A stretch of DNA of 62,326 nt, filler included, from Collodictyon triciliatum (taxonomy: Eukaryota), in assembly GCA_043381765.1 (NCBI GenBank). It is 7 parts of 7 records of this genome, joined end to end, with 100 filler letters (N's around TTAATTAATTAA, not from the genome) between each part and the next. Parts side by side here need not be neighbours in the genome. Positions count along the whole stretch, not along the records: positions 1 to 10,826 come from JBHJMP010000119.1; positions 10,927 to 26,357 come from JBHJMP010000120.1; positions 26,458 to 30,030 come from JBHJMP010000122.1; positions 30,131 to 39,069 come from JBHJMP010000123.1; positions 39,170 to 47,074 come from JBHJMP010000125.1; positions 47,175 to 55,393 come from JBHJMP010000126.1; positions 55,494 to 62,326 come from JBHJMP010000129.1. One strand, 5' to 3'. The notes under the pieces were generated by a model. It ran no database searches. It was not told the origin of the DNA and saw only the letters and a list, made by a program, of their open reading frames with translations. Made by a program: the position numbers and the translations under genes. Below, one piece after another: positions 813-62,142 of the stretch. The stretch's first letter is position 1; every line of letters starts with the position of its first letter.

Positions 813-872
813 GGAGTTGAGGGTGAGATTTTTTTTTTCCTTTATTCGATTCAAAGGAGTTGAGGGTGAGAT
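813..872 (-). mobile_element. 26-nt poly(A)-tailed retro-insertion with a perfect 17-bp TSD
   Basis: GGAGTTGAGGGTGAGAT at 813-829 and 856-872 flanks T-run-CCTTTATTCGATTCAAA. Confidence 0.85.
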
Positions 873-1156
873 ACGCATTGGGTTGATTGCGACCAAACAC
901 TAGAAGACCTTTGCATCAGAAAAATCTTTTTCATTTGCCTCTGCTGAAAGTAAAAGAATTTGACGCATGGCCAGTCTTTAGAAAAATCATCCCTTTAACT
1001 AATCAATCCGGCCTAGGAGACGAGAATTTGTAAGAATTTACATCATCGCCTCAGAAAGCCTGCAGATTTGCGAGCACTAGTAGCAGGTTTTTTTTTGTTT
1101 GAAGAAAAAAAACATATCACGTCAAGGTTGGCAAAAAAAAAAATGCTGATGTAATA

Positions 1157-1237
1157 AACAGACACAGCAATTTTTTTTCCTTTATTCGATTCAAACTGCT
1201 GCGAGGTTATGCCGTACAAGCGAACAGACACAGCTAT
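1157..1237 (-). mobile_element. ~51-nt retro-insertion of the same family, 15-bp TSD
   Basis: AACAGACACAGC(A/T)AT flanks T-run-CCTTTATTCGATTCAAACTGCTGCGAGGTTATGCCGTACAAG. Confidence 0.8.
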
Positions 1238-2223
1238 GCTATATTTGTCTTCACATAATGATTGAGTAAAAGAAATGCACCATAATTGGTGTTATTGATT
1301 TTTCTATTTTTTGGTTTTGGTTTTGGTTTTGGTTTTGGTTTTGGTTTTGGTTTTGGTTTTATATTTTTTTGGTATTTTTTGGTATTTTTTGGTATTTTTT
1401 GGTATTTTTTGGTATTTTTTGGTATTTTTTGGTATTTTTTGGTATTTTTTTTTTTAATACCTTGTTGTTCTGGTGTTTAAATCTACCGAAATCTCAATCA
1501 ATTAGTGCTAAATTTGTATTGGCTGTCCCTTCCAATTTGTGTATAAAAGAGGCAGGCTATTTCTTGCATTTAATCTATTTATGGAAATTATATTAATTAT
1601 AGTATAATATGTTCCTTTTTACTTTCTTGATTATATAAAGTAATATATTAAATTGTATGAGATTAAAATAAATAAGTAGAATAAGCCTACTATCCAGCAA
1701 TGAATGAGACATTCATAGTGTCTCCTCACAACAGAAAAACAATGATGGCGACACACCCGACCACTTCTAGAATCTTCATATACAAATATGGCAACCCAAA
1801 GGAGACGCAGCTACATAAATTCCACATATGACTATCATCTTTGAGAACTCGAGGCCTTTCGTTGGGTATTTATAATCTCGCTGGTCTTTATTTTCTATCA
1901 CAAGCCCCTAACCCCACAAAGGAATCGCATCATGGCTGACAGCGCACTCGCTACTCTGAGCAGGCACAATCTCCCAGCTTTCCTCTGAGTGAACAAAACA
2001 TTTCTTCCAGTGCAGTCATTTGAAGGGCAAAAAAAAAAAAAAAAAAAAAAAAAAAAAAAAAAAAAAAAAGGAAAAAATTTAAAAAAAAAAAAAAAAAAAA
2101 AAAAAAAAAAAAAAAGTCAAATCACAAGTTTGTAACATCCAGCATATATTATCAAACAGCAAAGGACACGGGCTCTCACAGTCCTAGAACACCCTCAACT
2201 GCGCCTAGGTATCTTTTGTTGCA

Positions 2224-59400: not shown

Positions 59401-62013
59401 ACAACAAAATACAACAAAATACAACAAAATACAACAAAATACAACAAAATACAACAAAACANNNNNNNNNNNNNNNNNNNNNNNNNNNNNNNNNNNNNNN
59501 NNNNNNNNNNNNNNNNNNNNNNNNNNNNNNNNNNNNNNNNNNNNNNNNNNNNNNNNNNNNNAGAATAAAATAGAATAAAATAGAATAAAATAGAATAAAA
59601 TAGAATAAAATAGAATAAAATAGAATAAAATAGAATAAAATAGAATAAAATAGAATAAAATAGAACAAAACAAAACAAAACAAAATAAAACAAAATAAAA
59701 CAAAATAAACAAAATAAACAAAATAAAACAAAATAAAACAAAATAAAACAAAATAAAACAAAATAAAACAAAATAAAACAAAATAAAACAAAAGAAAGTA
59801 TTCAAAAGAGAACAAAAGAGAAAATAAAAGATGCCATAAATTTAAGAGAAAGCCACCTGCCATAGCCCCCAATTCCGTGTCTCAGCAAAATAAAAAAAGC
59901 GTAGATGAGAAATGATGACTCAGTTTCTGAAACGAAGAACACATGCATGAATGAATTTTTTCGTAAAAAAAAGAGAGTGTACTATGAAAGGCTAAATTAC
60001 CAGTAAGGATGGCTTTTTTCGTATCTGTCTTTATTATAGGGAGGCCAAATAACGAGACATCAGTGGAATATTTATCACTAGGAAATACCTATTCAGCGTT
60101 GACATGAAGTCTTATTCGGATGCAGAGTCTATTCGGATGGTTGTCATTACAAGGAATGAAAAAAAAAGGAACAAACCTGGTATTCATTACCGATAACCGA
60201 GAAGCACTTTATTCTTTTCAGATTATATTCTTTTGGTATTGCCGATGATTTATTCGGGAGATACCATGGATAAACGACATGGTCTTCAAGGTTACCAAAT
60301 ATGTTTCGTTTGTTGGTAAATCCGACCTGTTTAATTATTCGATTTGTGAGTGAATTACATGTCTCTTGGTGAGATGACCCAAACAGATATTGCAAAACAA
60401 CACTTATTCTTGGCGTGGCTATTTTCTCATCAGTTATTCATCAACAAGAAACTACTTCTTAACTTGACATTTTGGTCACACAAAAAAATATAATGAGATA
60501 ATTTGTTAAGATGTTCATTTCATGATTACGCTGTAGGTTTCCAGGATTTTTGTGTCAATTTTCTTTAGTTTTCGGAAATAATCGACAATCGGGCTTGCAT
60601 TTATGGGTTCCACTGGAGGAATGAGTTTTGTAGTGTCTTTACTATCAGATTGTAACTAAAGAACATGAATACACATCAGTAAAGAAAAAGAAGAAGAAAA
60701 AACGCCACATATCAGAGTAGAACCTTAGTACCAAAAGCATCTGAACTCGGTAAATTGAAAAAAAAAATCGCTTTCTTTATAAATTCGAACCAGCTACGGA
60801 GAACTATGATGTCTTACTCACTTGATTTGCCCCTGATATTGCCATAAAATCTATGTCCCCATGAAGTCCTTTAAACATGTACCAGGAGCATGACTTTCCA
60901 CAAGAATTGCATGAAAAATGACCGGTGGAACGGTTCAGACTTGAAACTCCTGGCTTCATATTATCGAGGTGTTGGGTTGAAAGCAAAGATATACATAACC
61001 AAAAAATAGTCGGAAAAGAAGCAAAGCAAAACAAAAAAGAAGAAAAGTTATTCGAAAAATGTGTAATACTTCTACAAACGAAGCATCATAGATCTTGTTG
61101 GTATAAAAAAAAAAGGTGCGGCACTCATATACTGGATGCACATTCACTAAAAAAAGTATGCATATAAACATGAATCATAGCATATGTGAATATAAACTGC
61201 TAACCTCCGCACTTTTACAGGCCGGGCACCGTTTCAGGGAGAGCAAGCCTCCATCACGATGAAATTCAATTCCCCTTCGATTCAGGTACGAGGTGATTTC
61301 CTCAGGGTCTCGTGTGACGTGAGAGGAGACATATGCGTTTTGCATATCCGTCGAGTCGACAGCATTAGTGTGCTGTGGAGCAGATACTTGAGCCGCAGGT
61401 TCGACCGGCGGGCGGGTTGTTGCAACGGGCTTTTCAGTTCGACTGCCTTTGCTCTTTCTGCTCGAATGCGTGGNNNNNNNNNNNNNNNNNNNNNNNNNNN
61501 NNNNNNNNNNNNNNNNNNNNNNNNNNNNNNNNNNNNNNNNNNNNNNNNNNNNNNNNNNNNNNNNNNNNNNNNNNNNNNNNNNNNNNNNNNNNNNNNNNNN
61601 NNNNNNNNNNNNNNNNNNNNNNNNNNNNNNNNNNNNNNNNNNNNNNNNNNNNNNNNNNNNNNNNNNNNNNNNNNNNNNNNNNNNNNNNNNNNNNNNNNNN
61701 NNNNNNNNNNNNNNNNNNNNNNNNNNNNNNNNNNNNNNNNNNNNNNNNNNNNNNNNNNNNNNNNNNNNNNNNNNNNNNNNNNNNNNNNNNNNNNNNNNNN
61801 NNNNNNNNNNNNNNNNNNNNNNNNNNNNNNNNNNNNNNNNNNNNNNNNNNNNNNNNNNNNNNNNNNNNNNNNNNNNNNNNNNNNNNNNNNNNNNNNNNNN
61901 NNNNNNNNNNNNNNNNNNNNNNNNNNNNNNNNNNNNNNNNNNNNNNNNNNNNNNNNNNNNNNNNNNNNNNNNNNNNNNNNNNNNNNNNNNCCAAAGAACA
62001 GCAATCTGCTCAT
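56473..62013 (-). CDS. TWNK: Mitochondrial Twinkle (T7 gp4-like primase-helicase), many exons; C-terminal end unresolved
   Basis: Zinc domain CPAC...CNSC and a TOPRIM-like region precede [25 protein letters not shown] (Walker A), [17 protein letters not shown] (Walker B), [22 protein letters not shown] and KNRYDGALG. Confidence 0.95.
59258..59792. repeat. Compound A-rich minisatellite in a Twinkle intron
   Basis: Successive blocks (AACAACAGAAGAA)n, (AAAATACAAC)n, (TAGAATAAAA)n and (AAAACAAAAT)n. Confidence 0.9.
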
Positions 62014-62082
62014 CCACGGGCTCTCCGGTTACGGTTTACTGCGCAAAGTGTAAGGACAACAGAAAGATGAATAACGACATAC

Positions 62083-62142
62083 AGCCGAGTCCTACATTCT
62101 TTTTTCCCCTTTATTCGATTCAATGAAAGCTGAGTCCTACAT
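62083..62142 (-). mobile_element. 30-nt retro-insertion of the same family, 15-bp TSD, upstream of Twinkle
   Basis: AGC(C/T)GAGTCCTACAT at 62083-62097 and 62128-62142 flanks T-run-CCCCTTTATTCGATTCAA. Confidence 0.8.

What the first reader, a model, noticed from the sequence alone, without database searches (positions are those of the whole stretch)
813..62142. Dense family of ultra-short (17-80 nt) retro-insertions with long target-site duplications
Seen: about ten copies (830, 1172, 3634, 12318, 12841, 13687, 14053, 17534, 36338, 62098) on four separate scaffolds share the 3' end ...CTTTGTATGGC.TAA.CTCG.TGCACTTTGAATCGAATAAAGG(A)n and stop at different 5' points. Six have clear 13-17 bp flanking direct repeats; one is a perfect 17-bp TSD around only 26 nt. 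Known: a common 3' end, poly(A), variable 5' truncation and long TSDs are hallmarks of target-primed reverse transcription. Inference: retrotransposition here nearly always aborts within a few dozen bases, leaving roughly one scar per 6 kb. These may be too short for typical repeat finders. This points to an unusually unprocessive RT or a host mechanism that cuts off cDNA synthesis.
Basis: partly seen in the sequence, partly recalled or inferred. Interest (0 to 1): 0.85.

Follow-up and report, generated by a model that had tools for sequence, protein, structure and literature searches.

The report
Very short tail copies of a LINE
The repeated 25-80-base inserts are real: they are the extreme 3' ends of an L1-like jumping gene (a LINE) pasted in by reverse transcription, an ordinary process seen here in an unusually short form.

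Summary
The motif TTTGAATCGAATAAAGG occurs 10 times at up to 3 mismatches, against 0.54 expected. Nine hits are true family members. They share a 3' end plus a short A tail and stop at different 5' points, keeping 17-73 nt of the element. Seven of the nine have flanking direct repeats with 11-17 matching bases, against 6.5% of 1500 random sites (P = 1.5e-7).

The source is a LINE. A longer copy at 54720-55393 (-) carries the C-terminus of an ORF2 with a zf-RVT zinc knuckle. A metagenome contig, L001, joins that same ORF2 end and 3' UTR directly to the tail motif and an A10 tail. The only full-length relatives found are distant. They have APE, RT and zf-RVT domains, and the one searched matches human L1 ORF2p best.

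Target-primed reverse transcription with 5' truncation is therefore well supported. Not shown is that retrotransposition "nearly always aborts" early, or that the RT is unprocessive. Copies of at least 0.7-1 kb exist. The window is a chain of linker-joined contigs, one of which breaks inside the long copy. Length-dependent selection is a known alternative. No genome was available and no empty site could be tested. Verdict: a new member of a known kind, of modest interest.

The parts
813..872 (-). Copy 1. Insert 830-855 is the 17-nt element end plus A9 (26 nt). Perfect 17-bp TSD at 856-872 and 813-829.
   Evidence: 18 of 18 identical to the L001 tail
1157..1237 (-). Copy 2. Insert 1172-1222 (51 nt, about 41-44 nt of element plus A7). 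TSD 14 of 15 at 1223-1237 and 1157-1171.
   Evidence: 37 of 41 identical to the L001 tail
3622..3692 (-). Copy 3. Insert 3635-3679 (45 nt) with no A tail. The flanking repeat, 12 of 13, is a low-complexity T run at 3680-3692 and 3622-3634.
   Evidence: 40 of 43 identical to the L001 tail
12305..12365 (-). Copy 4. Insert 12318-12352 (35 nt, about 21 nt of element plus G/A tail). TSD 12 of 13.
12826..12878 (-). Copy 5. Insert 12838-12866 (29 nt, about 19-22 nt of element plus a degenerate tail). TSD 11 of 12.
   Evidence: 18 of 19 identical to the L001 tail
13674..13779 (-). Copy 6, the longest short copy. Insert 13687-13766 (80 nt, 72-73 nt of element plus tail). TSD 12 of 13.
   Evidence: 64 of 72 identical to the L001 tail; 88.9% over 81 nt
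14042..14080 (+). Copy 7. About 30 nt of element plus an A-rich tail. The flanking repeat is unclear (best 6 matches; a gapped candidate only).
17533..17570 (+). Copy 8. About 28 nt of element plus a GGA8 tail. Only a weak 8-9-nt repeat with an indel.
62083..62142 (-). Copy 9. Insert 62098-62127 (30 nt, about 20 nt of element plus tail). TSD 14 of 15.
54720..55393 (-). Long copy of the parent LINE. ORF2 C-terminus at 54818-55393 (P0001, zf-RVT, CX2CX8HX4C), then 3' UTR at 54720-54817. Its 5' side is cut by the contig linker at 55394. Its 3' side stops about 27 nt short of the element end, and no tail motif follows.
   Evidence: 95.7% over 674 nt to L001:349-1019
36338..36358 (-). Doubtful degenerate copy. 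A gapped match to the tail motif followed by a (GAAA)n run that abuts an N gap. TSD not testable.
   Evidence: sequence printed; not found or 58

Best explanation
The inserts are severely 5'-truncated copies of one poly(A)-ended, L1-like LINE family. The proposed steps follow the textbook L1 model. The element's endonuclease nicks the target. The freed 3' end primes on the short A tail of the LINE RNA. Reverse transcription copies only the last 17-73 nt before the cDNA is joined to the other side of a staggered break, leaving 12-17-bp target-site duplications. What is shown: the shared 3' end, the A tail, the variable 5' ends, the TSD enrichment, and the physical link of the tail to a LINE ORF2 with a zf-RVT domain. 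What is inferred: the nick-and-prime steps themselves, and an APE endonuclease and RT in this particular family, since only its C-terminal part was seen. Why almost all copies in this window are under 100 nt is open. I think the most likely cause is a mix of three things: real early 5' joining, better survival of tiny inserts in gene-dense DNA, and loss of long copies at contig breaks.
For: Motif: 10 hits against 0.54 expected. The alignment of copies shows one 3' end and staggered 5' ends. TSDs: 7 of 9 copies have >=11 matching bases, against 97 of 1500 random sites, P = 1.5e-7. In the seven copies with clear repeats the insert sits directly between the two repeat copies, and likeness to the L001 tail runs to within about 0-3 nt of the insert's 5' end in c839, c1179, c3636, c12845 and c13694. 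An unbiased scan for an A run plus a >=12-base repeat gave 8 candidates, 5 of them from this family. Parent element: 54720-55393 (-) encodes P0001 with zf-RVT at 30.3 bits against a cut-off of 27.5. L001 carries the same ORF2 end (83% protein identity; 95.7% DNA identity over 674 nt), running without a break into ...CTTTGTATGGCATAACCTCGCTACACTTTGAATCGAATAAAGG plus A10. The distant full-length relatives P0012, P0014 and P0017 have Exo_endo_phos and RVT_1, and two of the three also match zf-RVT below its cut-off. P0012 matches human L1 ORF2p at 2e-60 against R2 at 5e-25. Contigs from four metagenome runs of four studies show the same tail at other loci with unrelated flanks. One is a roughly 48-nt copy whose two loose ends share 11 of 12 bases. 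Others run on into the LINE 3' UTR. TSD pairs differ at 6 of 98 positions, and five of the six copies that aligned cleanly differ from the L001 tail by 5-11% (the sixth is identical), so insertion spans a range of ages.
Against: No RT or endonuclease sequence of this family itself was seen. The window holds none (tblastn). All close protein relatives in a library of 1.84 billion representatives are fragments of 136-253 aa, and P0018, from the separate word-indexed search, is 345 aa and lacks the RT. Two of the nine copies lack a convincing TSD, and one TSD is a T run. Copy 3 has no A tail. AATAAA lies only 2 nt before the tail, so it may not act as the polyadenylation signal. No empty site was seen.
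Confidence: 0.9

Rival explanations
1. In this organism TPRT of this LINE is cut off within a few dozen bases in nearly every event, by a weakly processive RT or a host factor (end-joining, RNA cleavage). On this view the length distribution at insertion, genome-wide, is dominated by copies under 100 nt.
For: In the window 9 of 10 copies keep <=73 nt. Under an illustrative exponential length law with a 1-kb mean, 9 or more of 10 copies at <=80 nt has P of about 9e-10. Only one of the window's contig ends lies in known sequence of this LINE. Further short copies with other flanks appear in metagenome contigs. Host end-joining is known to limit LINE length (PMC2666801, passages read).
Against: Copies of >=674 nt and >=1 kb exist, and several metagenome contigs run past the 80-nt point into the LINE. 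The window is a chain of contigs, and only about 1 kb of the element is known, so 5' parts at contig ends would go unseen. Selection against long inserts gives the same picture among surviving copies (PMC3381678). The copies are old (6 of 98 TSD mismatches), so they form a filtered sample. The tail RNA shows no special structure that could stall an RT (z = 0.09).
Confidence: 0.3
2. Survivorship and ascertainment. The LINE truncates as other LINEs do. Long copies are removed by selection or deletion in gene-dense DNA and are lost or collapsed at contig breaks, so mainly tiny tails remain visible.
For: The one long copy ends exactly at a contig linker. There are six such linkers and ten other N gaps in 62 kb. 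In stickleback about a third of Maui L2 copies are under 100 bp, and fixed insertions are mostly severely truncated, which the authors attribute to selection on length and to deletion (PMC3381678, passages read).
Against: The other gap flanks that I printed are microsatellites, not LINE sequence. TSDs lie directly against the short inserts, so these were short at insertion and not trimmed later. A 9:1 ratio would need very strong filtering.
Confidence: 0.45
3. The copies come from a short non-autonomous element (SINE-like or tail-only RNA) that shares the LINE's 3' end, not from LINE RNA itself.
For: Copies 2 and 3 begin within 1-2 nt of each other, about 43 nt from the end. Copies of <=73 nt cannot be told apart from a SINE carrying a LINE-derived tail of that length.
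Against: The 5' ends are scattered (about 17, 19, 20, 21, 28, 30, 43, 43 and 72 nt). The longest short copy matches the LINE 3' UTR right up to its 5' end. Metagenome contigs continue into LINE-specific sequence. No head sequence such as a tRNA, 5S or 7SL was found, and Rfam gave 0 matches in the window.
Confidence: 0.05
4. Endonuclease-independent capture of LINE cDNA or RNA fragments at chromosome breaks during repair.
For: Very short templated patches are typical of repair. Two copies lack clear TSDs, and copy 3 lacks an A tail.
Against: Seven of nine copies have 12-17-bp duplications, which indicate staggered nicks rather than break repair. All copies end at the same 3' base with a tail.
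Confidence: 0.05

Closest known systems
L1-superfamily LINEs (human L1 as the model)
   Same: A tail; variable 5' truncation; long TSDs of variable length (human L1 inserts gave 15-bp TSDs; PMC4245944, abstract read); C-terminal cysteine-histidine motif in ORF2. Distant full-length relatives have APE + RT and match human L1 ORF2p best.
   Different: Only the last 1 kb or so of the element is known. TSDs do not start in an A-rich stretch; 5 of 7 begin with AT. The tails are short (0-11 A). AATAAA sits 2 nt from the tail. In this window 9 of 10 copies keep <=73 nt.
Heavily fragmented LINE populations of compact genomes (stickleback Maui L2 / Expander)
   Same: A large share of copies under 100 bp; fixed copies mostly severely truncated; length-dependent selection proposed (PMC3381678, passages read).
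   Different: Those are L2/Rex-type elements, and about half the Expander copies also lack their 3' ends through deletion. Here the short copies keep the exact 3' end and are bracketed by TSDs, so they were short when inserted.
Host end-joining that limits LINE length (ZfL2-2 in DT40 cells)
   Same: It offers a mechanism for early 5' joining: insertions were longer, and full-length ones appeared only, in NHEJ-deficient cells (PMC2666801, passages read).
   Different: That is an experimental system with another LINE clade. Nothing here tests host factors.
L1-driven short templated insertions and processed-pseudogene fragments (recalled, not checked in a paper here)
   Same: Short RNA-derived inserts with A tails and TSDs.
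   Different: Those copy many cellular RNAs. Here one LINE's own tail accounts for 5 of the 8 A-tail-plus-repeat candidates in the window.

Membership tests
Non-LTR retrotransposon (LINE) copies made by TPRT | Common 3' end with variable 5' truncation | tested here: met
   Alignment of 9 short copies and 1 long copy; retained lengths of about 17-73 nt
Non-LTR retrotransposon (LINE) copies made by TPRT | Target-site duplications flanking each copy, above chance | tested here: met
   7 of 9 against 6.5% of 1500 random sites; P = 1.5e-7
Non-LTR retrotransposon (LINE) copies made by TPRT | Empty sites carrying a single copy of the duplicated sequence | tested here: inconclusive
   No contig of the 4 runs laid bridged an insertion site, and no 25-80-nt joint was listed. 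No genome is held.
Non-LTR retrotransposon (LINE) copies made by TPRT | Parent element encodes a reverse transcriptase | tested here: inconclusive
   Only the ORF2 C-terminus was seen. RVT_1 is present only in distant relatives at 25-32% identity. No RT piece lies in the window.
L1 superfamily (L1/Tx1-like) | C-terminal Cys-His zinc knuckle of ORF2 (Pfam zf-RVT) | tested here: met
   P0001: PF13966, 30.3 bits, cut-off 27.5. Also in P0003, P0004, P0006, P0007 and P0018 (precomputed).
L1 superfamily (L1/Tx1-like) | N-terminal APE-type endonuclease | not testable with these tools
   The 5' part of the element was not recovered. It is seen only in the distant relatives P0012, P0014 and P0017.
L1 superfamily (L1/Tx1-like) | Poly(A) 3' end without a required 3' stem-loop | tested here: met
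   A tails of 6-11 in 7 of the 9 short copies; copy 3 has none and copy 5 only a degenerate A-rich tail. A10 in L001. The tail RNA folds no better than shuffles, z = 0.09.
L1 superfamily (L1/Tx1-like) | Placement by RT phylogeny | not testable with these tools
   No RT sequence of this family is available.
SINE | Discrete full length with a pol III-type head | tested here: not met
   Scattered 5' ends. Rfam gave 0 matches in the window.

The most novel reading that the evidence does not exclude
In this unidentified freshwater eukaryote, an L1-like LINE ends most of its integration events after copying fewer than about 100 nt. The genome would then be peppered with poly(A)-signal-bearing micro-insertions too short for repeat finders. 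That would point to a host or RNA-level block acting at the very start of reverse transcription, and to a steady source of small indels in and near genes.
Probability: 0.25. Interest if true: 0.55.

Novelty: new member of a known kind. Interest (0 to 1): 0.3.

Why it matters
This family is an undescribed L1-like LINE. My five literature searches turned up no report of it, but they could not name the organism, so this is weak evidence. Its tiny copies show that TSD-bracketed LINE tails of 25-80 nt can be numerous and are easily missed by repeat annotation. If a genome-wide census showed that young insertions are already this short, the organism would be a natural system for studying what stops TPRT at its first steps. 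Otherwise this is ordinary 5' truncation, filtered by selection and assembly.

Tried and rejected
- Whole-genome scan: no genome is held.
- Earlier notes of this scan: none by place or by sequence.
- Exact 21-mer in metagenome contigs: 0 loci. In viral contigs: 0. In prokaryote genomes: 10 loci, all unrelated bacterial sequence with no LINE likeness upstream. Rejected as chance or bacterial genes.
- Word-indexed protein search for longer relatives of P0001: none. With the L001 N-terminal part: only P0018 (345 aa, no RT).
- Taxon: the WD40 ORF search gave only generic WD40 proteins at <=44% identity. The Atlas gave zf-RVT clusters from several eukaryote phyla.
- Sequencing runs: only freshwater and lake metagenomes, each with <=0.07 of the sampled words. 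Laid, they show sparse 151-nt contigs identical to the window and the repeat at higher depth. I draw no habitat, copy-number or empty-site conclusion from them.
- Gene context of the insertions: I scanned 101 of the 132 ORFs of >=55 aa in 1-20 kb, leaving out the 31 that lie in 5658-10517. Only an LRR exon (2209-2718 +), an Aa_trans exon (16595-16906 -) and a sub-threshold zinc finger were found, so I make no intron or orientation claim. The strand split of 7:2 is not significant (p = 0.18).
- RNA structure of the tail: none beyond shuffles.
- The local aligner ran into the TSDs of copies 4, 8 and 9. I treat that as chance, not as microhomology.
- A second A-tailed insert at 27190-27270 has no other copy in the window.
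Full report
**Observation.** The window is eukaryotic DNA. No genome is held for it. It has 22 N runs, WD40, LRR and aldehyde-dehydrogenase exons, and about 36% G+C. The motif TTTGAATCGAATAAAGG occurs 10 times at <=3 mismatches, against 0.54 expected; 0 of 100 shuffles reached 10. Nine hits are followed by an A-rich tail. The longer ones also share the upstream sequence ...CTTTGTATGGCATAACCTCGCTGCAC. 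The hit at 19219 looks like chance.

**Target-site duplications.** I searched each copy for the best direct repeat between the 60 nt after the tail and the 140 nt before the motif, allowing one mismatch. The scores were 17, 14, 12, 12, 11, 12, 6, 8 and 14 matching bases. The same procedure at 1500 random N-free sites gave >=11 in 97 cases, or 6.5%, mostly at microsatellites. Seven of nine at that rate has P = 1.5e-7. One of the seven (3636) is a T run, and two copies (14056, 17544) have only weak, gapped candidates. In the seven clear cases the insert lies directly between the two repeat copies. In five copies likeness to the L001 tail runs to within about 0-3 nt of the insert's 5' end. A motif-blind scan for an A run followed by a >=12-base repeat within 400 nt gave 8 candidates, and 5 belong to this family. 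Inserts are 26, 51, 45, 35, 29, 80, about 39, about 38 and 30 nt with tails, and keep about 17-73 nt of the element. The TSD pairs differ at 6 of 98 positions. Copy identity to the L001 tail ranges from 18/18 to 64/72. The copies are therefore of mixed and mostly not recent age.

**Source element.** A search with the 80-nt copy found an internal match at 54723-54764. That region, 54720-55393 (-), is an open frame ending in CX2CX8HX4C, followed by a 3' UTR. The protein (P0001) matches Pfam zf-RVT above its cut-off, 30.3 against 27.5 bits. A full HMMER pass over 1.84 billion representatives gave 15 hits. The close ones are all fragments of 136-253 aa at 36-95% identity. The only full-length proteins are distant (25-32% identity over the C-terminal region). 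They carry Exo_endo_phos and RVT_1, and two of the three match zf-RVT below its cut-off. One of them matches human L1 ORF2p at 2e-60 against R2 at 5e-25.

A profile of the fragments found one metagenome contig, L001 (1157 nt). It holds the same ORF2 end (83% protein identity; 95.7% DNA identity over 674 nt). It runs straight on into ...CTTTGTATGGCATAACCTCGCTACACTTTGAATCGAATAAAGG plus A10 and then unrelated DNA. This ties the short tails to a LINE. The window's long copy is cut on its 5' side by a contig linker. On its 3' side it stops about 27 nt short of the element end. No RT or endonuclease piece lies in the window (tblastn). The tail RNA has no structure beyond shuffles, z = 0.09, which fits priming on the A tail.

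**Outside the window.** The only public runs holding part of 10927-15460 are freshwater and lake metagenomes with small shares. Four of them, from four studies, were laid. They give sparse 151-nt contigs identical to single-copy parts of the window. At 13688-13765 they give many contigs at much higher depth, with differing flanks. Some stop at other 5' points. One 151-nt contig holds a roughly 48-nt copy whose two loose ends share 11 of 12 bases, a further TSD-bracketed short copy. Others continue past 13765 into sequence that matches the LINE 3' UTR of L001. No contig bridged one of the nine sites, so empty sites were not tested.

**Mechanism.** The anatomy is that of target-primed reverse transcription with 5' truncation, the general fate of non-LTR elements (PMC2881922, one passage read). 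The TSD length fits L1-type elements; human L1 gave 15 bp (PMC4245944, abstract read). The steps themselves are inferred from that model.

**Why so short?** Nine of ten copies in the window keep <=73 nt. That is far from an illustrative exponential law with a 1-kb mean.

- Longer copies exist.
- The window is a chain of contigs joined by N44-TTAATTAATTAA-N44 linkers, plus ten other gaps. The one long copy ends at a linker, and only about 1 kb of the element is known, so hidden 5' parts could not be recognised.
- Short copies are the ones expected to survive. In stickleback about a third of Maui L2 copies are under 100 bp, and fixed insertions are mostly severely truncated, which the authors attribute to selection on length and to deletion (PMC3381678, passages read).

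Host end-joining is known to shorten LINE inserts (PMC2666801, passages read), so a host cut-off is plausible but untested here. Eight of the nine copies lie in the first 17.6 kb (post hoc P = 3e-4), so 'one per 6 kb' is not a genome-wide rate.

**Verdict.** The TPRT origin is well supported (0.9). The parent is a new L1-like LINE family of an unnamed freshwater eukaryote. The claim of near-universal early abortion is open (about 0.25-0.3). This is a new member of a known kind, of modest interest.

Noticed in passing
window 10827-10926, 26358-26457, 30031-30130, 39070-39169, 47075-47174, 55394-55493: Six spacers of 44 N + TTAATTAATTAA + 44 N, a linker with stops in all six frames. The window is therefore a chain of separately assembled contigs, not one continuous locus. 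Most of the linker flanks printed are microsatellites.
   Followed up: partly
window 27190-27270 (+): An 81-nt A-tailed insert bracketed by a 12-of-13 direct repeat (AAGCTCCTCCT.T). It is unrelated to the LINE tail and has no other copy in the window. It may be a retro-copied piece of another RNA.
   Followed up: partly
window 830-855 and all other copies; L001:1030-1057: The AATAAA hexamer sits only 2 nt before the A tail, closer than the 10-30 nt usual for cleavage signals (usual distance recalled). The tail may be templated, or the signal may lie elsewhere.
   Followed up: no
window TSD starts at 872, 1237, 3692, 12878, 62142 (minus strand): Five of the seven clear TSDs begin with AT, and four of those are preceded by T. 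This hints at a nick-site preference unlike the A-rich L1 site. The sample is small.
   Followed up: no
window 3635-3679 (-): This copy has no A tail and lies in a T9 run, so its 'TSD' is low-complexity. It may have been primed differently or lost its tail.
   Followed up: no
window 54690-54730 (-): The long LINE copy departs from L001 about 27 nt before the element end, and no tail motif or A tail follows. This suggests a 3' deletion or rearrangement after insertion.
   Followed up: partly
window 32017-34932 (+): An intron-free 971-aa WD40-repeat ORF. Its best relatives, at <=44% identity, include fungal and bacterial NACHT/nSTAND-type WD40 proteins.
   Followed up: partly
window 8209-10581 (-): A 790-aa open frame, rich in Ser and Gln and of low complexity, with no Pfam match.
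   Followed up: no
window 36241-36337: A (TTTC)n run next to the doubtful tail copy and an N gap. It may be a microsatellite grown from an A-rich LINE tail. That idea appears in the listing of PMC3812793, where I saw only the start of the abstract.
   Followed up: no
window 15078-15110 and 11344-11377: Two further short stretches are covered by metagenome contigs at raised depth with unlike flanks in several runs. They are probably other small repeats.
   Followed up: no
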